Assembly (NCBI GenBank): GCA_020854145.1
Contig: JADZFZ010001118.1
Coordinates: 14,067-78,066 of the forward strand
Length of the DNA: 64,000 nt
Source: Deltaproteobacteria bacterium
Lineage (GTDB): Bacteria; Myxococcota_A; Polyangia; Polyangiales; JADZFZ01
Direction: 5' to 3'
In this document: positions 24,907 through 63,073 of the stretch, one piece after another
Layout: every line of letters starts with the position of its first letter
Position numbering within the stretch: the stretch's first letter is position 1
Position numbers and translations under genes: made by a program
The notes under the pieces: model-generated
What the model saw: the letters and a program-made list of their open reading frames with translations, nothing else
Database searches by the model: none
Told to the model about the DNA's origin: nothing

Positions 24907-25254
24907 TCAGCGACCGCGGGGACCGCTGGTGCGGCGCGGAGACGACGGCTGCGTGCGCTCACCAGCCGGCTCCTCCGGCTCCGGAGCCCTGACGACGATC
25001 GGCGCCGGTGGCCCGATGACGACGGGTGCCGACCTGGCGCCGCGTGACGGCTTCGGCGCCTGAATCCCATCGACCGCCACCATCTTGCCGGCAACGTAGA
25101 TTCGCAGGCCGGGATTCTCGAGCATCTTCGCGGCCGACTCCTCGTCGATCTCGACCGACGCGCCGGGCTGCAACGTGTAGCCGGACGCGTGTTGCGTGTC
25201 TGGCACACCAGGCAGACCGACATCGGCGGTGTGCACGTTCGTGAAGGTGACCAT
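24907..25254 (-). CDS. Hypothetical head-associated protein (115 aa)
   Basis: ATGA overlap with the capsid gene stop. Folded N-terminal ~65 aa, then a Pro-rich tail. Confidence 0.5.
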   Translation of the reverse strand: MVTFTNVHTADVGLPGVPDTQHASGYTLQPGASVEIDEESAAKMLENPGLRIYVAGKMVAVDGIQAPKPSRGARSAPVVIGPPAPIVVRAPEPEEPAGERTQPSSPRRTSGPRGR

Positions 25255-44035: not shown

Positions 44036-45771
44036 ACGCGCTCGCGCCCCCGGAGACGGCGGTGGCTGGAGCGACGACGACGCCATTGCCAACCTCATCG
44101 GTGGCGTCGTCAACGAAGCCCTCGACGAGCTCGTCATCACCGGGCGAGTACATCGAGCGCTTCCCTCTCAAGCGCCTGCGCGAGAGCGCGACGAACCCGC
44201 GACGCATCTTCGGCAAGCTCGACGAGCTCGCCGTCAGCATCAAGCGACACGGCGTGCTCGAGCCGCTGCTCGTGCGCCCGGTGCCGGGCAAGCCCGACAC
44301 CGAGATCGTCGCAGGACACCGGCGGTTCCGCGCGGCCACCATCGCCGGCGTCGAGCACGTGCGCGTCATCCTGCGCGAGCTCTCCGACTCCGACGCTCTC
44401 GAGATCCAGCTCATCGAGAACGTGCAGCGCGAGGACCTCCACGAGCTCGACGAGGCCGACGGCTACGCGCAGCTCATCGAGCGGTGCGGCTACACGCCGG
44501 CGACGCTCGCCGAGAAGGTCGGCGTCTCGAAGGCGACGATCCACGCGCGCCTCAAGCTGCGCTCTCTCGGGCAAGCGTGTCGTGACGCATGGCTGAACGG
44601 CGAGCTCGACGCGAGCCGTGCGCTGTACCTCGCGCGCATCCCGACGCAGGCGTTGCAGGAGCAGGCGCTCGAAGAGATCACCAAGGGCACTTTCAACGAT
44701 GGCCCAATGAGCGCGCGCGAGGCGCAAGCTCACATCGCGCACCACTACACCATCGCGCTCGATGAGCGCGCTCGCTTCGACACTGCAGACGAAACGCTGG
44801 ATCCCGTCGCTGGGCCCTGCATCACGTGCCCGAAGCTGTCGGGGAACGCGCGCGACCTGTTCCCCGAGATCCAGCGTGCAGACGTCTGCACGGACCCCGA
44901 GTGCTTCAAGGGCAAGAGCCAAGCGCACTGGAATCGCACCGCCGAGAAGGCGGCCAGGACCGGGTTGCGCGTGCTGAGTGCGAAGGAAGCCAAGAACGCG
45001 ATCGACCCATATGGCCCCACCGGACGCCCCAAGGAGACCTCGGGATATGCCGCCCTCGACCAACAGGCCCCGTGGGTCATCGGCAGAGGCAAGACCTGGA
45101 AGCAGCTGCTCGGGAAGAAGGCCCCCGCTCCGACTGTGATCGCGAGAGACCCTCGCACCGGCGACGCCGTGCAGCTCATCGAACGCAACAGACTCGAGGC
45201 GGTCGCTAAGGAGCACGGCATCGGTCAACCGACCGAAGAAGAGCGGCGAGCGCGAGACGAGGCCAAGGCCAACCTAGAGCGCGCGAACAAGAAGGCTGAG
45301 GCCGACCAGCGAGCACAGCGCGACGTTGCGCTCGCCCTGGTCGCTGCGGCAGAGGCGGGGGGCGGCGAGCAGCTCTGGCCGCTGGTCGCGGCACACCTGA
45401 TCACGATCGAGCGCGAGGGCTACTCCGACAACCTCGACGAGACCGAGATGGCGCAGCGGCGAGGCCTCGACGGCGCGGAAGACGCCTCTGCGCTGCTGCG
45501 TGCTCTGCCGACGATGAAGTCGGCCATCGCGCGTGGGGTCGCCGTCGAGGTCCTCGCGCTCACTGACTACACGGGCGCGATGCGGAGCGAGCTCTGCAAG
45601 CTGCTGGGCGTCGACCCCAAGCGGCCCAAGACGCCAGCGAAGAAGTCGACGGCGAAGGCCGCCAAGAAGACGCCAGCGAAGAAGTCGACGGCGAAGGCCG
45701 CCAAGAAGACGCCAGCGAAGAAGTCGACGGCGAAGGCCGCCAAGAAGACGCCAGCGAAGAAGGGCCGCTGA
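44032..45771 (+). CDS. ParB/Spo0J-like protein with Cys cluster and Lys/Ala-rich repeat tail
   Basis: ParB N-domain (LEPLLVRP...IVAGHRRFRAA; IENVQREDL), HTH (ATLAEKVGVSKATIHARLKL), Cys cluster PCITCP...CTDPECF, and TPAKKSTAKAAKK x3.5. Confidence 0.85.
   Translation: MNALAPPETAVAGATTTPLPTSSVASSTKPSTSSSSPGEYIERFPLKRLRESATNPRRIFGKLDELAVSIKRHGVLEPLLVRPVPGKPDTEIVAGHRRFRAATIAGVEHVRVILRELSDSDALEIQLIENVQREDLHELDEADGYAQLIERCGYTPATLAEKVGVSKATIHARLKLRSLGQACRDAWLNGELDASRALYLARIPTQALQEQALEEITKGTFNDGPMSAREAQAHIAHHYTIALDERARFDTADETLDPVAGPCITCPKLSGNARDLFPEIQRADVCTDPECFKGKSQAHWNRTAEKAARTGLRVLSAKEAKNAIDPYGPTGRPKETSGYAALDQQAPWVIGRGKTWKQLLGKKAPAPTVIARDPRTGDAVQLIERNRLEAVAKEHGIGQPTEEERRARDEAKANLERANKKAEADQRAQRDVALALVAAAEAGGGEQLWPLVAAHLITIEREGYSDNLDETEMAQRRGLDGAEDASALLRALPTMKSAIARGVAVEVLALTDYTGAMRSELCKLLGVDPKRPKTPAKKSTAKAAKKTPAKKSTAKAAKKTPAKKSTAKAAKKTPAKKGR
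44875..44892. repeat. Palindrome copy 4: CGTGCAGACGTCTGCACG (inside the ParB-like gene)
   Basis: Perfect 18-bp palindrome. Translated RADVCT and overlaps the CTDPECF Cys motif. Confidence 0.95.
45631..45765. repeat. 39-bp perfect tandem repeat x3.5 (encodes the TPAKKSTAKAAKK tail of the ParB-like protein)
   Basis: Units at 45631..45669, 45670..45708 and 45709..45747, plus a partial copy. Confidence 0.95.
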
Positions 45772-46602: not shown

Positions 46603-46831
46603 GCGGCGCAAGCGCCGACGATTGCACGTCGTCGAGCACGGCACGATTCGCATCCGGGCCTATCCCGTCATCGAGCGCGCCGTGAATGAGGGCCTCTCCG
46701 CTGGCTGGCGTCGGGCGCACAAGCACACGGACACACCAACCGTCGAGGCGATCCTCGAGCAGCTCGAGCGCGACGTGCTCGCGTGCCTCGACGGAGTCGT
46801 CGCCTTCGATCCGCACGAGCCCGCACCGTGA
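46595..46831 (+). CDS. Small hypothetical protein (78 aa)
   Basis: ATG 46595, in frame with the track ORF 46382..46831. Only the last 78 codons are protein-like. Confidence 0.45.
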   Translation: MGKRRKRRRLHVVEHGTIRIRAYPVIERAVNEGLSAGWRRAHKHTDTPTVEAILEQLERDVLACLDGVVAFDPHEPAP

Positions 46832-47241
46832 CGCGCCAGCTCCCGGCCATCCTCGTGGAGCCCGACGTGCTCGATCACCTCGAGGAGAAAGTTGTCGTCG
46901 TCTCACGTCGAGCACGGCCACATCCGAGCGGCACACGGGTCGTCTACATCGGACGACCCAGCGCGCTCGGCAATCCCTACCGCATCGCCCCCGGATACGA
47001 CGTCGCGCGGGATCCCGACGATGTCCTCGGGCGGTACGCCCGATGGCTCGAGCGGCAGCTCGACACGGACACGGCGGCGAGGCGCGCCATCCTCGAGATC
47101 ATCGCGGCCGTCTGTATCGGCGAGACGATCGCCCTCGAGTGCTGGTGCGCTCCGGCGCGATGCCACGGCGACGTCGTACGCAGCCTGGTGCTCGACACCA
47201 TTCGAGGCGCGATGCACGACGTGCTCGCGCTCGAGCAATGA
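46828..47241 (+). CDS. DUF4326-domain protein
   Basis: Translation VVYIGRPSALGNPYRI...LGRYARWL...ALECWCAPARCHGDVV. GTGA overlap start. Confidence 0.7.
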   Translation: MTRQLPAILVEPDVLDHLEEKVVVVSRRARPHPSGTRVVYIGRPSALGNPYRIAPGYDVARDPDDVLGRYARWLERQLDTDTAARRAILEIIAAVCIGETIALECWCAPARCHGDVVRSLVLDTIRGAMHDVLALEQ

Positions 47242-47711
47242 CCGCCGACCTCCCGCGGTGGCTCACGGCCGACGAGGTCGCGACGATGTTGCACTACCGG
47301 TCGCGCGCCGGCGTGCACATGGCCGTGAGGCGCGGCGAGCTCGTCGGCTATCGCCGCGGCCGCCGCGTGCTGTTCCTGCTCGAGGACGTCGATCGTATGC
47401 TCCGGGGCCGTCCGGTCGTGCGCCCCAGAGGAGAGGACTCCAATGGGCACCACGACGAAACCGAACCGACGAATCGCACCGGGTCTCTGGCAATTGGATA
47501 CGGAGAGGTGGCTCATTCGCGTCAAGGCGCGGAGCCGCAAGACGGGGAGAATCGGGGAGCGCCTCGAGCAGTTTCGGGGGACGCGAGCGGAGGCGATTGC
47601 CACGCGCGAGCAGTGGCGACTCGAGCTCGTCGGCGACGTCGTCCAGCGCGAGAGGCAGACGCTCGAAGCTGTCGCGAAATCGTGGCTGCAGCTCAAGATC
47701 GCACGCGGTGA
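47238..47711 (+). CDS. xis: Excisionase-like HTH protein; ORF tail overlaps int out of frame
   Basis: Translation WLTADEVATMLHYRSRAGVHMAVRRGELVGYRRGRRVLFLLEDVDRML. No stop until 47711, 269 nt into int. Confidence 0.6.
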   Translation: MTADLPRWLTADEVATMLHYRSRAGVHMAVRRGELVGYRRGRRVLFLLEDVDRMLRGRPVVRPRGEDSNGHHDETEPTNRTGSLAIGYGEVAHSRQGAEPQDGENRGAPRAVSGDASGGDCHARAVATRARRRRRPAREADARSCREIVAAAQDRTR

Positions 47712-48648: not shown

Positions 48649-48666
48649 CCGGGGCGATCACGCCGG

Positions 48667-48732
48667 AGCGGGAGAAGGGATTTGAACCCTCGACTTCAAC
48701 CTTGGCAAGGTTGAGCCCGTTTCCACTGAGCA
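48667..48732 (-). pseudogene. tRNA-Gly(GCC) remnant lacking the 5' acceptor strand (att-site fragment)
   Basis: Minus strand reads D arm GCTC-AGTGGAAAC-GGGC, anticodon arm CAACC-TTGCCAA-GGTTG, T arm GAGGG-TTCAAAT-CCCTT and 3' acceptor CTCCCGC-T. The 7 nt 5' of the D arm (TGTAGAA) cannot pair. Confidence 0.7.
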
Positions 48733-48751
48733 CTTCTACACATTCTTGAAA

Positions 48752-50068
48752 TCACTTCGCTTCTTGAGCCATGTCGTGCCGGCGCGCCTCGGCGTCTTCG
48801 CCTCGGTGGACACCGGAGTGGACACCTCCGGGGATGAGCCGCAGCGCTTGCTCGCCTGCGGCGCGAGCTTCGTCGGGCCGCACCTTCGAGTACCGCCTCT
48901 GCATCGCGTCGCTCTCGTGCCCGACGATGGACTGTCGGATGAACGAGTCGACTCCCGCCTGCCGCAGCAGGTCGACCATCGTGTGCCGCAGTCCGTGGAA
49001 CGTGACGCGCCGCTCGATGCCCACGGCCTTCAGGACGTCACGCCACTCCTTTGACAGGCTCCCGTTGACGAGCAGCGTGCCTTTCTCCGTCGTGAAGAGG
49101 TAACCCGCCGCGATGCCGGGATGCTCGACGGCAACCATCCACCGCCGGTACTCGCGGAACAGCTCGGAGAGCGCGTGGGGCCATGGAACCGAGCGCCGCC
49201 GCCGCCCCTTGGTGCCCTTGAGCTGACCTCGATAGTGCGCGCGCCGAACCAAGAGCGCCCCCTCTCGCTCCGCCTTGTCGAGATCGGCAGGTTGCAGCGC
49301 GGTGACCTCCCCCCACCGCATACCGGTGACGGCCGCGGCAAGCACTATCAGGAAGCCCTGCACCTTGAGATCACGGCGGTGCCGCCCGTGGAATCGAGGG
49401 TGGAGGTACTCCGGCGCGTCGGGCCACACGAGAGCGCATCGCCGTCGCCACTCCTCGATGATCGCACCCAGCTCCTCGGGCTCGAACGTGTTGTCGCCGT
49501 CGTCGGGGTGCTCGTCCTCGGGGATCGGCTTGACCAGGGCGGCCACGTTGCGGGCGATGAGTTTGTCGCCCACGGCGTCGTTCAGCAGGCTTACCAGCAC
49601 CCGCAGCCAGCCGTTGCACGACGTGGCTTGCCATCGCTCTGCTTCTGCCTTGAACCACGCCACCACGTCGGCCTTCTCGAGCCTGGCTAGGATCATCTGC
49701 CCGAGCGCCGGCCTAATCTGTCCGTCGAGCCCGACCGTGTTCAGGATGTGCTGGTCCAACGCGGTGGTGTAGCGGTCCACCGTGCTCGGCGACCATCTTC
49801 GAAGTGCGAGCCCGGTGCTCATCCACGACCGCGCGAATGACTCCACGGTTTCGCGGCTCTGTACTTTCACCGGCTCGTTTGCCGCCAGTTCGGCCCGCAC
49901 CTTCTCGCGTTCGATCAGCGCCTCCGCCTTCGTTCCGTCGAACTGCTGCCACCGGCTTCCGACGAGGCCGGTCTTCGAGCTGCGCGCCTTCACGCGAAAC
50001 TCGAACTTGTCCTTCTCCAATTGCCAAAGACCCGGCGCTACGCGCCTCTTCTTGCTTGTGCGTGCCAT
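48752..50068 (-). CDS. int: Tyrosine integrase (paralogue of 47443..48606)
   Basis: N-terminus RRVAPGLWQLEKDKFEFRVKARSSKTG versus RRIAPGLWQLDTERWLIRVKARSRKTG in int1. Motifs HGLRHTMVDLL and VGHESDAMQRRY. Confidence 0.9.
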   Translation of the reverse strand: MARTSKKRRVAPGLWQLEKDKFEFRVKARSSKTGLVGSRWQQFDGTKAEALIEREKVRAELAANEPVKVQSRETVESFARSWMSTGLALRRWSPSTVDRYTTALDQHILNTVGLDGQIRPALGQMILARLEKADVVAWFKAEAERWQATSCNGWLRVLVSLLNDAVGDKLIARNVAALVKPIPEDEHPDDGDNTFEPEELGAIIEEWRRRCALVWPDAPEYLHPRFHGRHRRDLKVQGFLIVLAAAVTGMRWGEVTALQPADLDKAEREGALLVRRAHYRGQLKGTKGRRRRSVPWPHALSELFREYRRWMVAVEHPGIAAGYLFTTEKGTLLVNGSLSKEWRDVLKAVGIERRVTFHGLRHTMVDLLRQAGVDSFIRQSIVGHESDAMQRRYSKVRPDEARAAGEQALRLIPGGVHSGVHRGEDAEARRHDMAQEAK

Positions 50069-50294
50069 CGATCAACTCCCCGGCGCGCACGACCGATCGA
50101 GGACGAATCATAGCGTCCAAATCCTCGCGCCGAAACAGCAAGATGCGTCCACGCTTGCCGACCGCTTTGAGGGCGCCGCGGCGAACGGCCATGAGCACGC
50201 CCCCGCGCGATTGGTAGCGGAGGTAGAGCGCCGCCTCGGCCGTCGTCAAGAACGGCGAAGTTGTCGGCGAAGCCTGCGAGTCGGAGAGAAGCAC
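49713..50294 (-). CDS. xis: Excisionase-like HTH protein (paralogue of 47238..47711); tail overlaps int out of frame
   Basis: Translation FLTTAEAALYLRYQSRGGVLMAVRRGALKAVGKRGRILLFRREDLDAMI. The int ATG (50068) lies inside this ORF. Confidence 0.55.
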   Translation of the reverse strand: MLLSDSQASPTTSPFLTTAEAALYLRYQSRGGVLMAVRRGALKAVGKRGRILLFRREDLDAMIRPRSVVRAGELIDGTHKQEEARSAGSLAIGEGQVRVSREGAQLEDRPRRKPVAAVRRNEGGGADRTREGAGRTGGKRAGESTEPRNRGVIRAVVDEHRARTSKMVAEHGGPLHHRVGPAHPEHGRARRTD

Positions 50295-50743: not shown

Positions 50744-50759
50744 TCTCTAGATCTAGAGA
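50744..50759. repeat. 16-bp perfect palindrome TCTCTAGATCTAGAGA
   Basis: Read directly from the sequence. Overlaps the stop codon of 50753..51943. Confidence 0.95.
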
Positions 50760-51943
50760 CCCGGTGGACGGAATCGCCAGCTCGCACAGGGGAGTTGCCT
50801 CCGAACGAAAGGCACAAGCCCACGCTGAGTGGCCAACACCTCCTGGTGGGCGTCACACGCCCAGCCGACGCGCTCGATTGGGCCCAATTGGGCGCCCAGG
50901 TAGGGACTCCCGGCGGCGCGTCGAGACCGACCACGCCGAAAGCCAAAGATGCACTCGTGCGAACAGACTGCACCGCAGATCTCGCAGTGTGCATGGGGAC
51001 CCGGTGGCAGAGCGTCAGGGTCAGAGGACACCGGAGGGCAGCAATTCGGCCACGCCGCCGGCATACCCATCACCGGCAAGGAGGGCGCGCGCCTGGGGCG
51101 ATGAAGCGCGATACCGCCCCTGTCCAAACGCCCCTTTGGGTCCGAATCACCTTGCCCAACGGCCCCATTCGATGGGCCGGCAGACGGCCGACTGTCCGTC
51201 CAACTGCCAGCAGGGGTGCGCCCGCCTCGGTCCGACTGCGATTGCTCGGCACTCGGCTCGACCTCTCGAAACGGTCTGCTGAGACGGTCCTTTGCCTTCT
51301 GTAGCTTAAACGCGGTCGTACGCAGCGCCCGAGCTAGCGCAGCCGCCTCCGGGCTCTCGCGAACACCGTCGGCGCGTCGCCGAACACTGGTCTTGCGCGA
51401 GGCCTCGTGGTCCCAATAATCGTCAAGGCCACCAAGCAGCGTCGTGATGCTCCGAAAGTGGTTTCCCCGGCCCGACGACGTCCGAGTGGCCTCCAGCCAA
51501 GCCAGTGCACGATCGAGTTCTCCGCGAAGCCCGGGATACTCGCGACGGACGATAGCGACGGACAGCCTAGCAATTACCATCACTCCTGTGTCCGCGCCCT
51601 CGCCCCACAACTCCTCCACCAGCCTCCACACATCCACAAGTTGCTGTCCAGGCTTGGGCCCTCTGGCGCTCTCGAGGGGCGCGCCGGGAACCTCCATCGT
51701 GTAGGCCACCCGGATCGCGGGCGTCTCTGGTCTCGCTGCGAACCTCCAGGCAACTCCAACGAACGTGCCTATCGCACCCGCGATACTCCAGTTTCCAGAA
51801 CGGCGCACAAAGGGCACGATCCCACCGGAACTAGCCTCCGCGCCCTCCTCCGCGGTGGTCCCAGCGTGCGGCGCGCCGCTATCGCCTCCCCCACCGGCCT
51901 TAGCGACAAATGTGTCTGTTGAACAATCGTCTGACTTCGACAT
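50753..51943 (-). CDS. Hypothetical protein (396 aa) with one hydrophobic segment and a C-terminal Cys/His cluster
   Basis: Long ORF in a lower-G+C stretch. Motifs WSIAGAIGTFVGVAW and HAHCEICGAVCSHEC...WACDAH. The C-terminal third is less protein-like. Confidence 0.45.
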   Translation of the reverse strand: MSKSDDCSTDTFVAKAGGGGDSGAPHAGTTAEEGAEASSGGIVPFVRRSGNWSIAGAIGTFVGVAWRFAARPETPAIRVAYTMEVPGAPLESARGPKPGQQLVDVWRLVEELWGEGADTGVMVIARLSVAIVRREYPGLRGELDRALAWLEATRTSSGRGNHFRSITTLLGGLDDYWDHEASRKTSVRRRADGVRESPEAAALARALRTTAFKLQKAKDRLSRPFREVEPSAEQSQSDRGGRTPAGSWTDSRPSAGPSNGAVGQGDSDPKGRLDRGGIALHRPRRAPSLPVMGMPAAWPNCCPPVSSDPDALPPGPHAHCEICGAVCSHECIFGFRRGRSRRAAGSPYLGAQLGPIERVGWACDAHQEVLATQRGLVPFVRRQLPCASWRFRPPGL

Positions 51944-52011
51944 TGTGCTCTCCTACAGCGCCATTGCGAGCAACGTATGTTGTTGCTTCTTTTGGCGTGT
52001 AAGGAGACAAT

Positions 52012-52233
52012 ATGACAACAAACGCGAAGCAATGCCAATCCATGCTAAGAGTAGTCGAGGCCGCCGCCCGAACCGGGCTGTCGCCCGCAACTATCTACCG
52101 GATGATGAGGAGTGGACAGCTGCGTGCTTGGACCGTCGCTGGACGAGCGCGTATCGCAGCGGAAGACCTGGACGAGCTGTTCACACCAGTCCTGCGACCC
52201 GCAAACGACGGGCGGAAGGGTGCGGCGGAGTGA
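52012..52233 (+). CDS. AlpA/excisionase-family HTH regulator
   Basis: AAGGAG RBS. Translation MLRVVEAAARTGLSPATIYRMMRSGQLRAWTVAGRARIAAEDLDELF. Confidence 0.7.
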   Translation: MTTNAKQCQSMLRVVEAAARTGLSPATIYRMMRSGQLRAWTVAGRARIAAEDLDELFTPVLRPANDGRKGAAE

Positions 52234-52361
52234 GGGGGCCTGGCGCGTCTCTTCGCGAATAACGCTGCACTGAACGGTGCGGCGAGAGACTGGGCTCCAA
52301 AAACTGCGCGAGCCGGGGCACCGCCCGACCCGCGCTGCACAACCCCTACTGCTGAGGGATC

Positions 52362-53021
52362 ATGTACACCTACTCTGTTTCTCATGTCGAAAATGCGCAA
52401 CCACATGCCAGTCCGGCTCCGACGGCGAACGCCGCCGTGTCGTCCGCCCCGCTCCTGTCCGCAGATCACCTAGCGTTCCTCGCGGCTCGGGGCATCTCGC
52501 CGGACCTCTCGGCGAGCGCCGAGCTGTACTCGGTCGACCCGCAGCAAGCCTCGGAGCTACTGGGGGACACCGTCGCGTCCTGGGGCATCGCCGTCGCATG
52601 CTGGATCTCCGACGCGTCAGGACTGGGGCACCGGGAGATCTGCTGTGTCCGGCTGGACCACGTCGCGCCGGGAGAGGCGCACTGCGCGCGCCCGCGTGGG
52701 AGGCCTCGTCCCACCTACCTCCCGACCGTCGTGACCCGAGAGACATGGCGCGATCCCACTGCTGAGCTGGTCGTGGTCGACTCGCCCATCGCAGCGCTAG
52801 CCCTGGCAGCCGCCGGAATCGCGGCTCTCGACATTGGCGACGACGGTGCGCCGAGCGTCGAGTGGCGCGGGCGGCGCGCCACTCTCCTCTACAGCGGCCG
52901 CCGGGCGTGGAACGCGGACGTCGCTCTGCGTGAGGTGCGGGTCGCCCGCGACCTCCTGGGACGCGGCGCCAAGGTGCTAGTCGCGGAGCTGCCAACCCTG
53001 GAGCGAGGAGGTGCGCTGTGA
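52362..53021 (+). CDS. DUF3854/Toprim-like domain protein (primase-associated)
   Basis: Motifs LSADHLAFLAARGISPD and LVVVDSPIAALALAAAGIAALDIG. 4-nt overlap with the helicase gene. Confidence 0.6.
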   Translation: MYTYSVSHVENAQPHASPAPTANAAVSSAPLLSADHLAFLAARGISPDLSASAELYSVDPQQASELLGDTVASWGIAVACWISDASGLGHREICCVRLDHVAPGEAHCARPRGRPRPTYLPTVVTRETWRDPTAELVVVDSPIAALALAAAGIAALDIGDDGAPSVEWRGRRATLLYSGRRAWNADVALREVRVARDLLGRGAKVLVAELPTLERGGAL

Positions 53022-55267
53022 GTAAGCCCATCCCGTCGCTTCCGGTTGCCTGGTCGCCGCGCGGTCGAGACGATCTCTGCCCCGATGACCTGGTCGCCCA
53101 GTCCAGCGTGGAGCGAGTCCGAGGGCTCCTGGCGGTAGCTCGTCCCGCCACGGCGCGGGAGCACGCCGTGGCGGTCCTCGAGCGCGAAACCGATCACGAG
53201 CGCAGGAGCGCGCGTGCGCGCGAATTGCTAGATGATCTGCCGTACGTGGCAGCGCTCGCCCTCGAGGACCGCGCCGAACGCGAACGCGCCATCAAACTGC
53301 TGACGAAGAGAACGAGCGTCACCAAGGCTGCAGTCGAGGAGCGCCTACAGGCGTTCGAGCGCGCGACCGAGGGCCAAGACTCGGACGAGGGACAGGGACA
53401 GGACGGGAGCACCCACCCCGCCGTCGACAGCGTCAGCCTCGAGGCCGGCTGGCTCTGCGCGACAGGCCACCGCGGGAAACCACTGCGGCTGGCTAACTTC
53501 GACGCGCGGATTGAGGCGGAGGTCACGCACGACGATGGTGTTGACCGTCGGAAGCGCTACCGCATCACAGGCAGCCTCCTCGCGACGGGCGAGGCACTCG
53601 AGGCAGTAGAGGTGCCCGCCGCAGACTTTTCTGCGATGAAATGGGTACACCCAGCCTGGGGCGCACGTGCGGTGGTCGGTGCTGGTCCTGGCGTCGGAGA
53701 CAGGCTGCGCGAGACGATCCAGCTCCGCTCCACCCCGACCCGCGAGACAGTCTACTCGCATCTCGGCTTCCGGAAGGTCGATGGCGTCTGGACCTATCTC
53801 GATGTCGGGGGCAGCGCCTCGAGCGTAGCGGCGCGTGTCGAGGTGCCGCACGATCTACGTCGGTTCCAGCTGATCCGCTCCACTGCTACCGCGGCCGATG
53901 CGCTGCGTGCGTCGATAGGGATCCTGGCGTGCGCACCGCTGGCGATCACTGTCCCGCTGCTCGGTGCTGTGTACGCTGCACTCCTCGCGTCCATCCTCCC
54001 GATCGACGTGGTGCTCTGGCTGTTTGGGCAGTCGGGCACTCGGAAAAGCAGTCTCGCAGCGATCGCACAGGCGCACTACGGCTCGGCGATGATTGACCGC
54101 CGTAACCTCCCGTGCTCCTGGACGTCGACGGCCAACGCGCTCGAGGAGACCACGTTCCTCGCGAAGGACGCGCTGGTCGTGTGTGACGACTATGCGCCGG
54201 CCTCGAGCGCAGCTGCGCGCCAAGAGCAAGACGCGAAGGTGGAGCGCATCGTGAGGAACGCGGGCAACCGGGCTGGACGACAGCGCATGCTCGCAGACCT
54301 GAGCCTCGCACCGGCACATCCACCACGATGTCTCCTCCTCTCGACCGGGGAGGATGCGCCGAGGATTGCCTCGATCCGCGCGCGCACCTTGCTGGTCGAG
54401 GTGCAGGATGTCGACCTGAATGCCCTGTCTGCGGTGCAGCGGTACCCCGAACTCCTCCCGCACGCCCTCGCCGAAGTCGTCGCCTCGATCTGCGGTCACT
54501 ACGATGCGTGGGTGGCGTACGCGCGAAGCCAGCAGGCCGAGGCCACCAGGAACCTATCGGCGCGGCTCGGCCCCAAGGCGCACTCCCGCACCGCGGGCAA
54601 CGTCGCGCAGTTGTACGTCGGCATCCTCTTGGTGAGCGACGTCGCCAACCAGGCGGGTGCTCTCGATGCCGCCGAGAGAGACCGACTCCGGAACGATGCG
54701 TTCGAGGCGCTCGTCGCTGTCGGCCGGCGACAAGCCTCGCTCGCCGAGGACGAGTCGCCCGCGGAGCAGTACGTCCGGACGCTCAGCGGCCTACTTGCAT
54801 CGGGTGCTCTCTGGCTCGCCCCACGGAGCGCGAGCGTGGCGGCGGAGCCTCCCCGCGGCGCCAGGACGGTTGGGTGGCGTGACGACGAGTGGGGGTACGT
54901 GCTGCCTACGGTCGCTTGGGAGGAAGTCAGTCGCGCGCTGAAGGTCAGTGGCGCCGGCCTCCCGGTCTCGCCTCGCATGCTCTATCAGGAGATGCTCGCC
55001 CGAGAATGGCTGGTAGCCGATCCCGACGGCAAGCACCAGGGCCGTGTCCTGAACGTCGGAGGCAAGTCGAAGCGTGTGTTGAAGCTCCCGATCGAGGTGC
55101 TTGAGGGTGCTCCTGGGAGCGACGCCGAACGCATCGAACCCGGGCCGAGTACCACAAGTACCAGTTCCACAGTGGAGGGGAGATCTACCGACCAATGCGA
55201 TGTACGAGACGATGCCGTGAGAACTCGTTGGCAGCGATGCCTTGCGCGAGACTCTCCTACCTCTTGA
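53018..55267 (+). CDS. DUF927-type replicative helicase/initiator
   Basis: 749 aa. Walker A LFGQSGTRKSS and Walker B-like ALVVCDDY. Confidence 0.8.
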   Translation: MSKPIPSLPVAWSPRGRDDLCPDDLVAQSSVERVRGLLAVARPATAREHAVAVLERETDHERRSARARELLDDLPYVAALALEDRAERERAIKLLTKRTSVTKAAVEERLQAFERATEGQDSDEGQGQDGSTHPAVDSVSLEAGWLCATGHRGKPLRLANFDARIEAEVTHDDGVDRRKRYRITGSLLATGEALEAVEVPAADFSAMKWVHPAWGARAVVGAGPGVGDRLRETIQLRSTPTRETVYSHLGFRKVDGVWTYLDVGGSASSVAARVEVPHDLRRFQLIRSTATAADALRASIGILACAPLAITVPLLGAVYAALLASILPIDVVLWLFGQSGTRKSSLAAIAQAHYGSAMIDRRNLPCSWTSTANALEETTFLAKDALVVCDDYAPASSAAARQEQDAKVERIVRNAGNRAGRQRMLADLSLAPAHPPRCLLLSTGEDAPRIASIRARTLLVEVQDVDLNALSAVQRYPELLPHALAEVVASICGHYDAWVAYARSQQAEATRNLSARLGPKAHSRTAGNVAQLYVGILLVSDVANQAGALDAAERDRLRNDAFEALVAVGRRQASLAEDESPAEQYVRTLSGLLASGALWLAPRSASVAAEPPRGARTVGWRDDEWGYVLPTVAWEEVSRALKVSGAGLPVSPRMLYQEMLAREWLVADPDGKHQGRVLNVGGKSKRVLKLPIEVLEGAPGSDAERIEPGPSTTSTSSTVEGRSTDQCDVRDDAVRTRWQRCLARDSPTS

Positions 55268-55270
55268 GAA

Positions 55271-55302
55271 GTGGTAATGAGGTAATGGTAGTAATGGTAA
55301 GA
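55271..55302. repeat. Iteron-like GTAATGG repeats just after the helicase stop
   Basis: The sequence gtGGTAATGaGGTAATGGTAGTAATGGTAAGag carries copies at 55273, 55281 and 55291. It is locally A/T-rich. Confidence 0.9.
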
Positions 55303-56057: not shown

Positions 56058-56222
56058 ATGCCAAGGATTATCCGCCGGAAGACAACGACTGTCGAGTGGT
56101 TCGAGAAGAACGTCGACGAGGACGACGACGTGAGCGAGGCTGAGGCCGACGGCGACGACGACGATCTCGACGACGACGATCTCGACGACGATCTCGAGGA
56201 CGACGAGGAAGACGACGAGTGA
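56058..56222 (+). CDS. Hyper-acidic 54-aa protein
   Basis: AGGAGG RBS 5 nt before ATG 56058. Translation MPRIIRRKTTTVEWFEKNVDEDDDVSEAEADGDDDDLDDDDLDDDLEDDEEDDE. Confidence 0.6.
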   Translation: MPRIIRRKTTTVEWFEKNVDEDDDVSEAEADGDDDDLDDDDLDDDLEDDEEDDE

Positions 56223-56225
56223 TCG

Positions 56226-57023
56226 ATGTTGCCGTGCTTCGCTCGAGCGGGACCGCGCCCGTCGGCCGAGACCGATGAAGTGACGGTGGTGCTAGAGCGC
56301 CTGGACCCCCGATCGTCGAGGCGCACGATGGCGTCGGCGATGGATCTCATCGCCCGAACGCTGAGCAATGATCAGTTGCTTACAAGGCACTCACTCGCGT
56401 GGGCGCGGATCAGCTCGCCGGTCGGCAACTACGTTCTACGTAGGCTTGCAGATCAGGGGTACTCCCGAACTACCGTCGCACGCTGCGCATATGCGCTGCG
56501 TTCCATGCGACGGCTGTACCCCGATCTACCGCCGCTCGAGTTGGAGCCGCTTCCCGTCACGCAGCCGGCAAGCCGTGTCGTTCAGCCCGTCGGCTACGCT
56601 ACGCTTGGCCGGCTGCGTGACGGCTGCGACGACGGGACCCCTCTGGGGTGCCGGGATGGTCTGGTGGTCGAGTTGCTGCGCGAGAAACTGAGCGCAGGCC
56701 AGATCGTCCGCCTCCGACTCGGCGATTGGGAGGACCGGAAACTCGTTGTCCGGCTGCCGAAGTCAGTGCGTCGCATTCGGCTCGCGGACCCGACGATCGA
56801 CGCGATGGAGGCGTGGGTCGCGCACCGCGGCCCGGAGGACGGTCCGCTGATCGCGCCGGTCCGTCGCCACACCGGCGCGCCGGTGCTTCGCGCCCTCCGA
56901 CCGGAGGCGGTCGGCGAGATCCTTCGACGTCGCGCACGCCTCGCCGGGCTCGCGCGGGTGCCCAGGGTGGTAGACGTCCGCGGTCCAGCTCTTCGAGCCG
57001 GTTGCCACGATGGGCAAGGCTAG
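56226..57023 (+). CDS. Tyrosine-recombinase-like protein lacking the C-terminal HxxR/Tyr region
   Basis: SAM-like N-domain (YSRTTVARCAYALRSMRRL) and the first half of the catalytic domain (LSAGQIVRLRLGDWED...VRLPKSVRRIRL). Ends before any HxxR...Y. Confidence 0.6.
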   Translation: MLPCFARAGPRPSAETDEVTVVLERLDPRSSRRTMASAMDLIARTLSNDQLLTRHSLAWARISSPVGNYVLRRLADQGYSRTTVARCAYALRSMRRLYPDLPPLELEPLPVTQPASRVVQPVGYATLGRLRDGCDDGTPLGCRDGLVVELLREKLSAGQIVRLRLGDWEDRKLVVRLPKSVRRIRLADPTIDAMEAWVAHRGPEDGPLIAPVRRHTGAPVLRALRPEAVGEILRRRARLAGLARVPRVVDVRGPALRAGCHDGQG

Positions 57024-58904: not shown

Positions 58905-59864
58905 TCACTTCTTCTCGTATTCGTCGACCAAGAGACGGGCGGCCGCATCTCCGACTTCGCGGGCGGCATCGTCGTAAAGTTCGGTCGACCGACTGCTCTT
59001 GTGGCGTCCGAAGTGCTGCGCCGTTCGGAGGTTCCCAGTGGCGTTGAGCACTGCCGTAATCGCGGAGTGGCGAAACGAATGCGGGTGCACGACGACGCCG
59101 ACGCGCGCGCCAGCCTCGCGAATGATCTGGAAGATCGCGCTGCCAGTCAGCCGCTTGCCTTTGCTGGCGGAATGAACGCCGCAGAACACCGGTCCGGGCG
59201 CGTCACCGCGGATCCGAAGCCACGCGACGAGCGCCGCCTCGGTCGCGGCAGGCAAGGACCAAGTCTCAAACTCGCCCTCTCGCTGACCTTTGAGGCGCAT
59301 GGACACTTCGTGTTTCGCGAGGTTGACGCGCTCCCGGTCGAGGGACATCACGGAACCCCGTCGGACGCCGAGATCGCTGAGCAGCCTGAGAATCGCGAAA
59401 TTGCGCACGTCCCGCGGCGCGCCGGCAGCCGCTGCTTCTCGAGCCTTGTTGAGCATGTCACGCACGACGCCGAACGCCGGTCCCTTCGTGTTGTAACGGA
59501 CGCGAGTCCCGGGGACTTGCGCCACGTCGAGATGCCAGTCCACGACGCCCAATTCCCTTCCCACGCCGACGACCGAACGGATTGACGCCAATCGCCGATT
59601 GACCGTCGGGGGACTCAACCCGCGCGCGATCATCGCGTCTCGGTAGTCGCCCACGGCGGCGTTGGCGTCGCCACGCGCGAGCGACAAGAGTCGCATGACG
59701 GCTCGTGTCGAATCTCGCTCCCCCATGAAGGCGGCGAAGTGCTGAAGGTCTTTCCGGTAGGCGCTAATCGTCTCGCGGCTCTTCTCAGTCTCGAGGCGCG
59801 CCATGAGTTGCCCCAGCCGCGACTGGGAGTCCGGCGGCTCCCACCGACTGATTGAATCCGCCAT
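58905..59864 (-). CDS. Tyrosine recombinase, XerC/D-like, apparently intact
   Basis: SAM-like N-domain (ETISAYRKDLQHFAAFM). Motifs ILRLLSDLGVRRGSVMSLDRE, HPHSFRHSAIT and GRHKSSRSTELY. Confidence 0.85.
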   Translation of the reverse strand: MADSISRWEPPDSQSRLGQLMARLETEKSRETISAYRKDLQHFAAFMGERDSTRAVMRLLSLARGDANAAVGDYRDAMIARGLSPPTVNRRLASIRSVVGVGRELGVVDWHLDVAQVPGTRVRYNTKGPAFGVVRDMLNKAREAAAAGAPRDVRNFAILRLLSDLGVRRGSVMSLDRERVNLAKHEVSMRLKGQREGEFETWSLPAATEAALVAWLRIRGDAPGPVFCGVHSASKGKRLTGSAIFQIIREAGARVGVVVHPHSFRHSAITAVLNATGNLRTAQHFGRHKSSRSTELYDDAAREVGDAAARLLVDEYEKK

Positions 59865-60312: not shown

Positions 60313-61122
60313 TCAGATGTCGTCTTCGTCACCGCGATCGTCGTCGTCCCTGCCACCCGCGTCGCCGATATCGTCCACATGGCGACGCGGGTACTCGTCA
60401 CGCGGACGAGGGGGCCACTCGTAGACGCCGACTCGGAGCCTGCCAGAAAGGTAGCTGGTGAGCGTGTGCTCGGCGTCTTTGAGCCGTACCTCCCTCGACT
60501 GTCGCGGCTTCGCGTCGATGTCTGCGCGATCTTCTACGATGGCACCATCCGTCGGATGGGGGCACGGCCTGTGAAAGGTGTAGCCGCCGCCCGAAAGCAA
60601 CTCGGCGTAGTTTCCATCGAGGAAGCGATGATATCCGGCATGCTGGAGCACACCATCAGTGACGAGGTGATGTAGCGCCTGGGCCTTCAAGGCGTAGAGC
60701 GACTCCTTCCTTCGCTTCGACGATGACGCGAACTGATGCGCACGCTTGTTGTACTGCCCTCGCGCGGCGTTGCGCCAGCGCTTCGCGGAACGGTTCGCGG
60801 CCCAGAGGGCAGCCAGCAAGTCGACGGTCTTGGCGGGGCTGTGCTTCCGCTGAGCCTTGGGGAGCACCTGATCGTCGCGGTAGACGTGCCACGACCTCGT
60901 CTTGCCGCCGGCCGCGCCGCCAACGTGACCGGTCAGGGTGGCGTGAGGCTCGGCGTCATCGCGAACCCGGCAGCCCTTCTCGCCCCACGCAGTGGCGGAG
61001 AGCGCGGCCTTCGGGTCTCGCGCAAGCAGCTGTCCTTTCAGGGTGATCTGCTCCCCTCCGTACTCGCCTTTGCGTAGCTCCCGAAACCCAGCGCTCTTGG
61101 CAGCTTTGATGGTGCGAAACAT
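60313..61122 (-). CDS. Hypothetical protein (269 aa) with acidic C-terminal tail; distant paralogue of 63070..63999
   Basis: Shares NR-x-AK...(E/S)(I/L)Y-x-LK...L-x-x-L and F-x-(W/F)-H-(Q/R)-P motifs with 63070..63999. Tail DDIGDAGGRDDDDRGDEDDI. Confidence 0.6.
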   Translation of the reverse strand: MFRTIKAAKSAGFRELRKGEYGGEQITLKGQLLARDPKAALSATAWGEKGCRVRDDAEPHATLTGHVGGAAGGKTRSWHVYRDDQVLPKAQRKHSPAKTVDLLAALWAANRSAKRWRNAARGQYNKRAHQFASSSKRRKESLYALKAQALHHLVTDGVLQHAGYHRFLDGNYAELLSGGGYTFHRPCPHPTDGAIVEDRADIDAKPRQSREVRLKDAEHTLTSYLSGRLRVGVYEWPPRPRDEYPRRHVDDIGDAGGRDDDDRGDEDDI

Positions 61123-62597: not shown

Positions 62598-62677
62598 GGT
62601 CGGCGATGGTACACGCGGCGTGACCCCCCTGCGTAAGCCCCCGTGCGAGACGCTCGGCTCGGCATCACGAAGCCCGC

Positions 62678-63073
62678 TCACCGGCGTCGTCTGGGTCCCC
62701 ATTTGTCACCGTACTGGGGAGGATCAGGAATCCGCTGAACAGGCTCGCTCGCTCGTTCCGCGATGAAAGTGCTGCCGTCGCCATTCGTGATCTTGATGCG
62801 ACCGCGGAGCCTGCCGTCCTTGCCGAGCCTGACGCTGCCCGTGCCGGTCATCTCGTCGTACTCCCAGGCGCCCTCCCAGGTGAACGACGCCCCAGTCTTC
62901 GTGGGTGTCACGTTCACGTACGCGAGCAAGCAATGCATCCGAAGTCGGTCCGCGCCGCCAGTGATGGAGATCATCGCCGGGCCCAGGTCGTCGAGCCCGT
63001 CGTTCACCCAGGTTGAGGTGTCCGTGATTCGCCACCAGCCGCACAGACCCGGATCCAAGCCCTTGCTCGTCAT
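62678..63073 (-). CDS. Small beta-rich hypothetical protein (131 aa)
   Basis: ATGA overlap with the upstream stop. Translation CGWWRITDTSTWVNDG...ASFTWEGAWEYDEMTGTGSVRLGKDGRLRGRIKITNGDGSTFIAER. Confidence 0.55.
   Translation of the reverse strand: MTSKGLDPGLCGWWRITDTSTWVNDGLDDLGPAMISITGGADRLRMHCLLAYVNVTPTKTGASFTWEGAWEYDEMTGTGSVRLGKDGRLRGRIKITNGDGSTFIAERASEPVQRIPDPPQYGDKWGPRRRR

What the first reader, a model, noticed from the sequence alone, without database searches (positions are those of the whole stretch)
52012..55302. Element 2 replication core (AlpA-like HTH, DUF3854-like, DUF927-like helicase, iteron-like repeats) with no virion genes: satellite/IME architecture
The gene order is int/xis, one cargo gene, an AlpA-like regulator with a strong AAGGAG RBS, a Toprim-like DUF3854 protein, then a 749-aa DUF927-type NTPase (GQSGTRKSS). 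This mirrors P4-like and PICI-like satellites (int - alpA - primase/helicase). Composition changes visibly at about 50.3 kb. Nothing from here to the window end encodes capsid, tail or terminase functions.
Basis: partly seen in the sequence, partly recalled or inferred. Interest (0 to 1): 0.55.

Follow-up and report, generated by a model that had tools for sequence, protein, structure and literature searches.

The report
Self-replicating genomic island beside a prophage
This stretch is the replication core of a small integrated mobile element, related to the replication machinery of staphylococcal pathogenicity islands and SCCmec, sitting next to a complete prophage. Nothing shows that it hijacks a phage, so it is a fairly ordinary new member of a known kind.

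Summary
The genes are real and lie at the stated coordinates. There is a 73-aa HTH_17 (excisionase-type) protein. There is a 219-aa protein of the DnaG/Toprim (DUF3854) type. There is a 749-aa DUF927 protein whose predicted fold matches SCCmec Cch and SaPIbov1 Rep, both self-loading initiator helicases. Three GTAATGR repeats start 7 nt after the rep stop codon.

Distant relatives (41% identity or less) occur in 335 species genomes across many phyla. Three of them are bounded by tRNA-derived direct repeats and measure 10-12.5 kb, with integrase, HTH_17, rep and restriction-modification cargo. Others sit in an ICE-like locus or beside terminase genes. The module is therefore a generic replication cassette of mobile elements, not a satellite marker.

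No hijacking, virion or conjugation gene was detected from 48.7 to 64 kb. The element shares no DNA with the neighbouring myovirus-like prophage apart from homology between the two integrase genes. The right end of the element lies beyond the window.

Two new points emerged. The primase-like subunit has lost three residues that are near-invariant in its own clade. The 'tRNA-Gly' between the two elements looks like a hybrid attachment site.

Verdict: integrative, probably self-replicating island; satellite status unproven.

The parts
48665..48739 (-). tRNA-Gly(GCC)-like sequence. It is probably a hybrid attachment site or pseudo-tRNA shared by element 2 (to the right) and the prophage (to the left).
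   Evidence: ARAGORN calls tRNA-Gly. Rfam RF00005 gives only 35.8 bits, against 54-73 bits for six tRNAs in related loci. The 5' acceptor strand GTAGAAG faces the 3' strand CTCCCGC with 2 mismatches and 1 G-U. The minimum-free-energy fold has no acceptor stem.
48752..50068 (-). int2, the tyrosine integrase of element 2. It ends 12 nt before the tRNA-like sequence on the same strand.
   Evidence: Pfam Phage_integrase 4.3e-17. It is 43% identical to the prophage integrase int1. GC3 is 0.83.
50069..50294 (-). xis2, an excisionase-type HTH_17 domain directly upstream of int2. The ORF runs on into int2 in another frame, as far as 49713.
   Evidence: Pfam HTH_17 7.2e-9.
50753..51943 (-). It is a doubtful gene; at most the part covering about residues 60-150 looks coding.
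   Evidence: GC1/2/3 are 0.68/0.61/0.68. There are no Pfam, PHROG, NCBIfam or PADLOC hits.
52012..52233 (+). 73-aa HTH_17 protein. It is the regulator or second excisionase at the head of the replication operon.
   Evidence: Pfam HTH_17 6.5e-11; TIGR01764 3.4e-9; phrog_66 2.1e-9. AAGGAG lies at 52001-52006. An HTH_17-like ORF lies directly upstream of rep in at least 12 of 39 related loci.
52362..53021 (+). p219, a DnaG/Toprim (DUF3854)-type primase-like subunit. Three residues of its conserved Toprim motifs (active-site residues by analogy with DnaG) are substituted: D140 for E, A144 for K, S178 for D.
   Evidence: Profile match. It is collinear with the N-terminal domains of fused proteins in L022, L057 and P0063 (E about 1e-12). 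Fold hit to Aquifex DnaG 2au3, E 3.4e-5. Among its 78 nearest relatives these positions are E in 74/75, K in 74/75 and D in 66/68 aligned segments.
53018..55267 (+). Rep, a DUF927 initiator helicase of the Cch/SaPIbov1-Rep fold. It is translationally coupled to p219 (GTGA overlap, AGGAGG at 53006-53011). Its first ~26 residues carry the last Toprim motif (CPDDLV).
   Evidence: Pfam DUF927 25.6 bits. AF2 model has pLDDT 84.5. Foldseek hits 5dgk at E 1.5e-14 and 8tch at E 9e-13. All 12 invariant family columns are kept, including K343, D390 and R456, and 77 of 90 highly conserved columns.
55274..55297 (+). Three GTAATGR repeats (start-to-start spacing 8 and 9 nt), starting 7 nt after the rep stop codon in a low-G+C patch. 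They are the putative origin iterons.
   Evidence: In the family, an exact 7-mer repeated at least 3 times in the first 70 nt after the rep stop occurs in 8/77 loci against 6/799 control ORFs (odds ratio 15, p 4.9e-6).
56226..57023 (+). 265-aa integrase-like fragment with no Phage_integrase domain hit. It may be a remnant of a former element end.
   Evidence: BLASTP against the Xer-like recombinase gives E 5e-4. No Pfam hit. In L007 a Xer-like recombinase follows rep and abuts the att repeat.
58905..59864 (-). Xer-like tyrosine recombinase inside the lower-G+C tract to the right of the core. Whether it belongs to element 2 is not settled.
   Evidence: Pfam Phage_integrase 2.6e-17 and Phage_int_SAM_1.

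Best explanation
Element 2 is an integrative, autonomously replicating genomic island. It is not demonstrably a phage satellite. It is inserted in tandem with a myovirus-like prophage at a tRNA-Gly site.

Proposed working, step by step:

1. Int2 with Xis2 excises the element (inferred).
2. The HTH_17 protein heads a three-gene operon, HTH-p219-Rep (gene order shown; regulation inferred).
3. Rep is a hexameric self-loading initiator helicase of the Cch/SaPIbov1-Rep fold with intact ATPase motifs (fold and motifs shown).
4. Rep binds the three GTAATGR repeats just after its own stop codon, melts the adjoining low-G+C DNA and unwinds it for host replication proteins (inferred by analogy with SaPI and SCC elements).
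5. p219 is a DnaG-type Toprim subunit made by translational coupling with Rep. It has lost three residues that are near-invariant in its clade. It is therefore probably not an active primase, and priming would fall to the host DnaG (inferred).

How the excised circle reaches new cells is unknown.
For: - Domains and motifs.
- Rep fold: Cch 5dgk at E 1.5e-14 and SaPIbov1 Rep 8tch at E 9e-13, on a model with pLDDT 84.5.
- p219 fold: DnaG. p219 and Rep together are collinear with single fused proteins in two Myxococcota genomes.
- The same split, with overlapping stop and start, occurs in an unrelated contig: L086 has a 202-aa DUF3854 protein followed by a 706-aa DUF927 protein.
- Repeats immediately after rep are enriched in the family (8/77 against 6/799, p 4.9e-6).
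- Three relatives are bounded by 45-59-bp tRNA-derived repeats and are 10.2-12.5 kb. They carry int, HTH_17, rep and restriction-modification, ParB or FtsK cargo and have no room for a virion module.
- 26 of 39 long related loci have a tyrosine integrase within 10 kb.
- The family is rare in virus collections: 2 small records among 50,697 phages and 18 loci among 2.9 million IMG/VR contigs, against 335 in 185,579 species genomes.
- No virion, conjugation or defence profile hits any ORF from 48.7 to 64 kb.
- Literature: DUF927 Cch is related to SaPIbov1 Rep, and SaPI origins lie just downstream of rep (PMC7581432). Thermus ICETh2 elements combine PrimPol, helicase and an integrase (PMC7693054).
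Against: - The right boundary is not in the window, and no tRNA-derived repeat was found. The element is at least 15.3 kb, and its content beyond 64 kb is unknown.
- Seven or more ORFs to the right of rep have no recognisable function, so a novel hijacking or transfer gene cannot be excluded.
- Some IMG/VR relatives lie within 10 kb of terminase genes.
- The nearest homologue of Rep is only 41% identical, so no close relative shows conservation of the repeats or of the gene set.
- The primase-like subunit looks degenerate, and Rep keeps 86% of highly conserved columns against a family median of 94%. The module could be decaying.
Confidence: 0.6

Rival explanations
1. It is a phage satellite. 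The element is induced by, and packaged in capsids of, a helper phage, perhaps the myovirus-like prophage integrated on the other side of the same tRNA-Gly site. It would use a minimal gene set like the PICMI elements.
For: - The int, HTH regulator and pri-rep order and the SaPIbov1-Rep-like helicase fit.
- Repeats follow rep as in SaPI origins (PMC7581432).
- It lies in tandem with a complete prophage whose integrase is a 43% identical paralogue.
- Delimited relatives are 10-12.5 kb, a size typical of satellites.
- Minimalist satellites without capsid-remodelling genes exist (PMC10803314 abstract).
Against: - No Psu/Sid/Delta, TerS, Ppi, Cpm or capsid homologue was found.
- No cos- or pac-like DNA is shared with the prophage. 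The only significant nucleotide matches are between the two integrase genes, plus one 38-nt match of doubtful meaning.
- int + AlpA + primase alone is classed as 'Type C' and judged unreliable by the SatelliteFinder authors.
- The same Rep family also occurs in an ICE-like locus and in an element with an FtsK/SpoIIIE gene.
Confidence: 0.12
2. It is the early (integration and replication) arm of a larger prophage or ICE whose late or transfer genes lie beyond 64 kb.
For: - int-xis-regulator-replication is also the usual left arm of temperate phages.
- The right att site is missing from the window.
- The contig continues for up to 30 kb more.
- Among eight IMG/VR loci with this Rep, three ORFs matched the commonest large-terminase family and others matched small-terminase and endolysin families. 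One genomic relative sits among TraG/TraF/TraH/TraI genes.
Against: - The 8.7 kb to the right of rep contains no PHROG hit of any virion or lysis category and no conjugation domain.
- That tract instead holds a CN-hydrolase-like gene, an integrase fragment and a Xer-like recombinase, which is more like an accreted island.
- The Rep family is very rare in phage collections.
Confidence: 0.13
3. It is a decaying, immobile remnant. The replication module is no longer functional and the region is a fossil island.
For: - p219 has lost E, K and D residues that are kept by 97-99% of its relatives.
- Rep retains fewer conserved columns than most relatives (86% against a median of 94%).
- About 1.6 kb (50.3-51.95 kb) lacks a clear coding signal.
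- An integrase fragment lies at 56226-57023.
- No close relative of Rep was found among 5.8 billion protein clusters.
Against: - Rep keeps all 12 invariant residues, including the Walker A and B motifs.
- Both ORFs are uninterrupted, with a coding-type GC3 of 0.77-0.79, and have good ribosome-binding sites.
- The split itself is a recurrent natural arrangement, not a lesion.
- int2 is full length and conserved against int1.
Confidence: 0.15

Closest known systems
SaPIbov1 pri-rep-ori module (staphylococcal pathogenicity islands)
   Same: The Rep fold matches (8tch, E 9e-13, target TM-score 0.68). A primase-type gene lies directly upstream of rep. Short direct repeats lie directly downstream of rep. 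The module sits in an integrase-bearing island without virion genes.
   Different: Sequence identity is only 10-12%. The upstream gene here is a DnaG/Toprim (DUF3854) domain that lacks three conserved active-site residues. No Stl-type repressor, TerS, Ppi or Cpm genes are present. The host is a high-G+C 'Deltaproteobacteria' MAG. Dependence on a helper phage is not shown.
SCCmec Cch (DUF927) helicase operon
   Same: It is the best fold match (5dgk, E 1.5e-14). It belongs to the same Pfam family. It sits in a site-specifically integrated, non-viral element thought to replicate after excision (PMC7581432).
   Different: SCC elements use serine recombinases (CcrAB or CcrC) and pair Cch with a small ssDNA-binding protein. 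Here there is a tyrosine integrase with Xis and a Toprim-type partner.
Thermus ICETh2-type elements (PrimPol + helicase + Int2; fused PrimPol-DUF927 in Meiothermus)
   Same: They are small (7.5-12 kb) integrative elements with a primase-type gene, a DUF927-related helicase and a tyrosine recombinase. Split and fused versions both exist (PMC7693054).
   Different: The primase there is an archaeo-eukaryotic PrimPol, not a Toprim domain. There is no sequence-level relationship closer than the family.
Cyanobacterial plasmid Rep proteins CyRepA1/CyRepA2 (DUF3854 + helicase domain)
   Same: They have an N-terminal DUF3854 (Toprim-related) domain joined to a helicase, and they are shown to support autonomous replication (PMC10079941).
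   Different: Their helicase part is a DEXDc domain, not DUF927. They are plasmid-borne and fused, not integrated and split.
P4-like and PICI satellites as defined by SatelliteFinder
   Same: Integrase, a small HTH regulator and a primase/helicase occur in the same order.
   Different: None of the hijacking components was found. The regulator is HTH_17, not the AlpA family PF05930. The helicase is DUF927, not the P4 alpha/D5 type. At best the element is 'Type C', which the authors exclude.

Membership tests
DUF927 / Cch-SaPIbov1 Rep initiator helicases | Match to Pfam PF06048 above the gathering score | tested here: met
   25.6 bits against a cut-off of 22.6, E 1.2e-5. NCBI names the protein a DUF927 domain-containing protein.
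DUF927 / Cch-SaPIbov1 Rep initiator helicases | Overall fold of Cch/SaPIbov1 Rep | tested here: met
   AF2 model has pLDDT 84.5 and pTM 0.76. Foldseek hits 5dgk at E 1.5e-14 and 8tch at E 9e-13, aligned over about 580-600 columns.
DUF927 / Cch-SaPIbov1 Rep initiator helicases | Intact P-loop ATPase motifs (Walker A Lys, Walker B acidic pair, conserved Arg) | tested here: met
   K343, D390/D391, R413, R423 and R456 fall in invariant or nearly invariant columns across 71 sequences.
DUF927 / Cch-SaPIbov1 Rep initiator helicases | Origin with iterons next to rep, bound by the C-terminal domain | tested here: inconclusive
   Three GTAATGR repeats start 7 nt after the stop codon. Such repeats are enriched at this position in the family. 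Binding was not tested, and no close relative exists to test conservation.
DUF3854 / DnaG-type Toprim primase domain | Match to Pfam PF12965 | tested here: not met
   No Pfam hit at E<=0.01. However, a profile of the N-terminal domains of 27 homologues that carry a precomputed PF12965 annotation matches residues 21-214. The relative P0122 is annotated with PF12965.
DUF3854 / DnaG-type Toprim primase domain | Toprim / DnaG RNA-polymerase-domain fold | tested here: met
   The top Foldseek hit is Aquifex DnaG 2au3 (E 3.4e-5, probability 1.00). T7 gp4 and RecR score lower. The model is of moderate quality (pLDDT 64.8 overall; 78-92 in the C-terminal half).
DUF3854 / DnaG-type Toprim primase domain | Conserved Toprim glutamate, lysine and aspartate residues (active-site residues by analogy with DnaG) | tested here: not met
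   The window protein has D140, A144 and S178. Its 78 nearest relatives have E in 74/75, K in 74/75 and D in 66/68 aligned segments. The final GxDD[FY] motif lies on the Rep polypeptide.
AlpA family regulators (PF05930) | Match to the AlpA family profile | tested here: not met
   Only HTH_17 (PF12728), TIGR01764 'excisionase' and phrog_66 match.
Phage satellites (P4-like, PICI, cfPICI, PLE) | Integrase, regulator and primase/replicase in one compact locus | tested here: met
   int2, xis2, the HTH_17 protein, p219 and Rep all lie within 6.5 kb.
Phage satellites (P4-like, PICI, cfPICI, PLE) | A helper-hijacking module (Psu/Delta/Sid, TerS/Ppi/Cpm/Rpp, or capsid genes) | tested here: not met
   No PHROG, Pfam or NCBIfam hit of these kinds in any ORF from 48.7 to 64 kb. 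Unknown ORFs remain.
Phage satellites (P4-like, PICI, cfPICI, PLE) | Helper-dependent induction and packaging | not testable with these tools
   This needs experiments or read-level data. No cos- or pac-like DNA is shared with the adjacent prophage.
Integrative conjugative or mobilizable elements | Relaxase, coupling protein, type IV secretion genes or FtsK-like translocase | tested here: not met
   None was found in the window ORFs. An oriT cannot be recognised with these tools. Relatives L007 (FtsK_SpoIIIE) and one GTDB locus (TraG/TraF/TraH/TraI) do carry such genes.
tRNA-integrated island bounded by att repeats | Direct repeat of the tRNA 3' part at the far end | tested here: inconclusive
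   No repeat was found within the window. The tRNA-like sequence next to int2 is defective, which fits a distal or hybrid att site. Three relatives do show 45-59-bp repeats.

The most novel reading that the evidence does not exclude
Element 2 is a working phage satellite of a so far undescribed family that spans several phyla. The family would be defined by an HTH_17 gene, a DnaG-type Toprim subunit (often split from the helicase at one fixed point) and a Cch/SaPIbov1-type Rep with iterons starting a few bases after its stop codon. The element would exploit the myovirus-like prophage integrated in tandem at the same tRNA-Gly site. The catalytically degenerate Toprim subunit would be kept as a structural partner of the helicase.
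Probability: 0.1. Interest if true: 0.65.

Novelty: new member of a known kind. Interest (0 to 1): 0.3.

Why it matters
Islands that replicate after excision, such as SaPIs, SCCmec and ICETh2, are well studied in Firmicutes and Thermus. They are hardly described in Myxococcota-like and other environmental phyla.

This locus and its 335 distant relatives show that the same Rep fold, with repeats placed just after the gene, is a widespread replication cassette of small tRNA-integrated islands that often carry restriction-modification cargo. That helps to annotate many 'DUF927/DUF3854 hypothetical' genes in MAGs.

The locus also offers a natural case of a split, probably inactive Toprim subunit.

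It does not by itself reveal a new mechanism.

Tried and rejected
1. Extending past 64 kb failed. Exact look-ups of both NCBI proteins found no contig on record. A GTDB scan with the last ORF found nothing. An exact 66-mer scan of JGI metagenomes found nothing.
2. A search for tRNA-derived att repeats in the window found none.
3. Pairwise BLASTP of p219 against fused homologues was non-significant. Only profile, phmmer and fold comparisons resolved it.
4. A homologue search with int2 returned only the protein itself, because the word prefilter saturates for integrases.
5. I first read the p219/Rep split as a frameshift lesion or assembly error. I rejected this after finding the same split, with overlapping stop and start, in L086, and several relatives that end at the same 'LP' point. 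Programmed -1 frameshifting was considered and rejected, because there is no slippery heptamer before the stop codon.
6. A shared cos or pac site with the prophage was looked for and not found.
7. PADLOC found no defence system in the element.
8. Rfam found no RNA family other than the tRNA.
9. The first iteron control contained over-long windows caused by a coordinate bug. Two reruns timed out. The corrected test is.


Full report
**Source and setting.** The window comes from an NCBI MAG labelled 'Deltaproteobacteria bacterium', from a contig of 93,982 bp. The 219-aa ORF is MCC7542396.1 (IT379_39625). The next gene is MCC7542397.1, named 'DUF927 domain-containing protein'.

The left 48.6 kb is a complete myovirus-like prophage. 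It encodes large terminase, portal, protease, major head protein, sheath, tape measure, baseplate, primase-polymerase, ParB, an HTH_17 excisionase and integrase int1. ARAGORN calls one tRNA, tRNA-Gly(GCC), at 48665-48739 on the minus strand. The finding lies to its right. G+C is 0.699 to the left of the tRNA and 0.661 from there to the window end. The composition shift is therefore real but modest, and it starts at the tRNA rather than at 50.3 kb.

**Checking the observation.**

- The 73-aa ORF (52012-52233) has AAGGAG 5 nt upstream of its ATG. It matches HTH_17 (6.5e-11), the TIGR01764 excisionase domain and phrog_66. It does not match the AlpA family profile.
- The 219-aa ORF (p219, 52362-53021) has no Pfam, PHROG, NCBIfam or PADLOC hit.
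- The 749-aa ORF (53018-55267) matches DUF927 just above the gathering score and carries GQSGTRKSS.
- The 'iteron-like repeats' are three GTAATGR copies at 55274-55297, starting 7 nt after the stop codon. There is only one other copy in the 64 kb.
- No ORF from 48.7 to 64 kb hits a virion, lysis, conjugation or defence profile.
- The '396-aa cargo gene' has a poor coding signature (GC1/2/3 0.68/0.61/0.68) and no hits, so it is doubtful.

**What the helicase is.** A search of 5.8 billion protein clusters found 72 homologues, none above 41% identity. Most of them carry an N-terminal primase-type domain (DUF3854, zf-CHC2, Toprim_2 or Prim-Pol) fused to the part that aligns with residues ~158-700 of the window protein.

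An AlphaFold model built on 71 sequences is confident (pLDDT 84.5, pTM 0.76). Its best structural matches are SCCmec Cch (5dgk, E 1.5e-14) and SaPIbov1 Rep (8tch, E 9e-13). PriRep1, NrS-1, the SaPI5 primase-helicase and poxvirus D5/E5 follow far behind.

All 12 invariant alignment columns are kept, including the Walker A Lys343, the Walker B residue D390 and R456. The protein keeps 77 of 90 highly conserved columns, against a family median of 94% and a minimum of 80%. Cch is a DUF927 helicase related to SaPIbov1 Rep, a self-loading initiator. SaPI origins lie just downstream of rep and consist of iterons (PMC7581432).

**What p219 is.** A profile built from the N-terminal DUF3854 domains of 27 fused homologues matches p219 over residues 21-214 (19.9 bits, E 1.7e-8 for one target). 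p219 and the 749-aa protein together are collinear with single fused proteins in a Myxococcales MAG (L022), in Polyangium jinanense (L057) and in P0063. For example, p219 residues 32-211 align with L022 41-225 at E 8e-13, and the helicase follows immediately. A moderate-quality model of p219 (pLDDT 64.8 overall; 78-92 in the Toprim half) has Aquifex DnaG primase as its only strong fold hit (E 3.4e-5).

Two further points emerged.

- *The split is a natural arrangement.* The two ORFs overlap in GTGA, with AGGAGG 6 nt upstream. The break falls between the last Toprim strand (…VLVAELP) and the conserved GxDD[FY] motif. That motif sits at residues 21-26 (CPDDLV) of the helicase ORF, with a 20-residue insertion relative to the fused proteins. 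An exhaustive phmmer search found 78 relatives of p219, of which 25 are short. Several of these end right after the same 'LP'. One of them, P0122, is followed with a TGATG overlap by a 706-aa DUF927 protein that starts MKTDPDEYL. The split is therefore recurrent and not an assembly error.
- *p219 has lost conserved active-site residues.* It alone lacks three residues that are near-invariant in its clade. Position 140 is E in 74/75 aligned relatives and D here. Position 144 is K in 74/75 and A here. Position 178 is D in 66/68 and S here. By analogy with DnaG-type Toprim domains, these are active-site positions. I infer that p219 is not an active primase.

**The repeats.** No close relative exists, so conservation of the repeat sequence cannot be tested. 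I asked instead whether the position is typical of the family. In the first 70 nt after the rep stop codon, an exact 7-mer occurs at least three times in 8 of 77 related loci. The figure for other long ORFs in the same loci is 6 of 799 (odds ratio 15, Fisher p 4.9e-6). Examples that start 4-13 nt after the stop codon are TGTCACCAG x3 plus an inverted copy (L007), TGGACCACTT x4 (L008), CTTACGG x3 plus an inverted copy (L051) and CCTTACAC x3 plus an inverted copy (L056). The window's GTAATGR x3 fits this pattern and lies in a local G+C minimum (0.56). This supports an origin next to rep, but it remains an inference.

**What kind of element carries this module.** A scan of one genome per species found 335 loci in many phyla, including Chloroflexota, Planctomycetota, Myxococcota, Acidobacteriota, Bacillota and Proteobacteria.

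- Among 39 loci of at least 15 kb, 26 have a tyrosine integrase, 22 have an HTH_17-like ORF (directly upstream of rep in at least 12) and 16 have a tRNA.
- Three elements are bounded by tRNA-derived direct repeats:
  - L005 is 12.4 kb (47-bp repeat, tRNA-Arg), with rep, ParB and integrase.
  - L007 is 12.5 kb (45-bp repeat, tRNA-Lys), with an FtsK/SpoIIIE gene and a Xer-like recombinase abutting the repeat.
  - L078, from a Myxococcales MAG, is 10.2 kb (59-bp repeat, tRNA-Cys), with int, HTH_17, an unknown gene, rep and a methylase-Mrr fusion.
- Other contexts carry type I restriction-modification, patatin and Eco57I-like genes.
- One locus carries TraG/TraF/TraH/TraI/AcaB.
- The family is rare in virus collections: 2 small metagenomic records among 50,697 phage genomes and 18 loci among 2.9 million IMG/VR contigs. 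Some of those 18 lie within 10 kb of terminase and endolysin genes.

The module is thus a general replication cassette of mobile elements. It is most often seen in small integrase-bearing islands, and it does not identify the transfer route.

**Satellite or not.** SatelliteFinder's P4 model requires Psu, Delta, Sid, a regulator, epsilon and alpha besides the integrase. Elements with only integrase, AlpA and primase/replicase are 'Type C PICI'. The authors set these aside as possibly defective elements, other mobile elements or chance aggregates (PMC10085698). Element 2 reaches at most that level.

Element 2 shares no DNA with the prophage other than homology between the two integrase genes. 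There is one additional 38-nt match (87% identity) inside the Xer-like gene, which I regard as chance. Minimalist satellites exist (PMC10803314), so the satellite reading cannot be excluded. Nothing here argues for it beyond architecture and neighbourhood.

**Geometry at the tRNA.**

- int2 (48752-50068) ends 12 nt before the 5' end of the tRNA-like sequence on the same strand. int1 converges on its 3' end from the other side. The two integrases are 43% identical.
- The tRNA-like sequence scores only 35.8 bits with RF00005. Six tRNAs in related loci score 54-73 bits.
- Its 5' acceptor strand (GTAGAAG) mispairs with the canonical tRNA-Gly 3' strand (CTCCCGC). The minimum-free-energy fold lacks the acceptor stem.
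- There is no room for a tRNA promoter between int2 and the tRNA.

My inference is that this is a hybrid attachment site in a tandem array: intact tRNA-Gly beyond 64 kb, then element 2, then the hybrid att, then the prophage, then the distal att beyond the left end. This would explain why neither element has its second att site in the window. It means element 2, or a stack of elements, is at least 15.3 kb. An integrase-like fragment (56226-57023) and a Xer-like recombinase (58905-59864) to the right of rep suggest accretion of more than one element.

**Verdict.** This is the integration and replication core of a genomic island whose Rep belongs to the Cch/SaPIbov1-Rep kind. It has a probably inactive Toprim partner and a likely origin next to rep. 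'Satellite' is one of several open transfer modes and has no positive evidence. It is a new member of a known kind. It has some value for annotating a large set of DUF927/DUF3854 genes in environmental genomes and is of modest interest otherwise.

Noticed in passing
window 1-48606: There is a complete myovirus-like prophage. It carries TerL (29895-31355), portal, protease, major head protein (25254-26318), sheath, tape measure, baseplate, a 1187-aa primase-polymerase (33684-37247), ParB (43999-45771), a DUF4326 protein, an excisionase and int1. Its far att site is not in the window.
   Followed up: partly
window 48665-48739: The only tRNA call in the window, tRNA-Gly(GCC), is a weak one: 35.8 bits in Rfam against 54-73 bits for tRNAs in related loci. 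Its acceptor stem is mismatched. It is probably a hybrid att site between two elements inserted in tandem.
   Followed up: partly
window 49713-50294 (-) and 46686-47711 (+): In both elements the excisionase ORF has no stop codon at the start of int. It runs 356 nt (element 2) and 269 nt (prophage) into the integrase gene, in the same relative frame (+1). Codon-position G+C shows that the int frame is the selected one (GC3 0.80-0.81 against 0.49-0.52). One relative (L016) has a fused HTH_17-integrase ORF. Whether a Xis-Int fusion or a long-tailed Xis is made is unknown.
   Followed up: partly
window 45628-45762: There is a perfect 39-bp tandem repeat (3.5 copies, 100% matches) inside the C-terminal part of the prophage ParB-like gene. 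It encodes a lysine- and alanine-rich tail.
   Followed up: no
window 62056-62151: There is a perfect 48-bp tandem duplication inside the 342-aa ORF (61674-62702, minus strand). It duplicates ETTCYVSAEYFEDDDP. The protein also has an HEVAH (HExxH) motif but no family hit.
   Followed up: no
window 56058-56222: A 54-aa, extremely acidic ORF (a run of D and E in its C-terminal two thirds) has AGGAGG 4 nt upstream of its ATG. It lies about 0.8 kb after rep. It has no family hit. Its size and charge recall DNA-mimic anti-restriction proteins, but this was not tested.
   Followed up: no
window 52306-52335: A G+C-rich 12-bp-stem hairpin lies between the HTH_17 gene and p219. It scores as a terminator only on the minus strand. 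It may be a regulatory element inside the operon.
   Followed up: no
window 60313-61122 and 63070-63999 (both minus strand): Two ORFs of unknown function share a short segment (E 3e-4). One of them matches the YkyB-like family weakly, below the cut-off. They may be paralogues within the lower-G+C tract.
   Followed up: partly
plasmid collection hits H4-H17: The nearest plasmid relatives of the Rep ATPase core (about 29% identity over residues 229-576) are annotated 'telomere-binding protein' on Rhodococcus plasmids.
   Followed up: no
L086 241-2969; relatives P0083, P0122, P0136: Several DUF3854 proteins from unrelated contigs end right after the same 'LP' strand. In L086 a DUF927 helicase follows with an overlapping stop and start, and it begins with the missing D-x-D-E-Y-L motif. 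The Toprim domain is thus repeatedly split at one fixed point.
   Followed up: partly
L022 6803-11635 and L057 9221-14266: The two Myxococcota relatives with a fused Toprim-helicase have open reading frames of about 1600-1680 codons. About 700 residues after the helicase part are of unknown nature.
   Followed up: no
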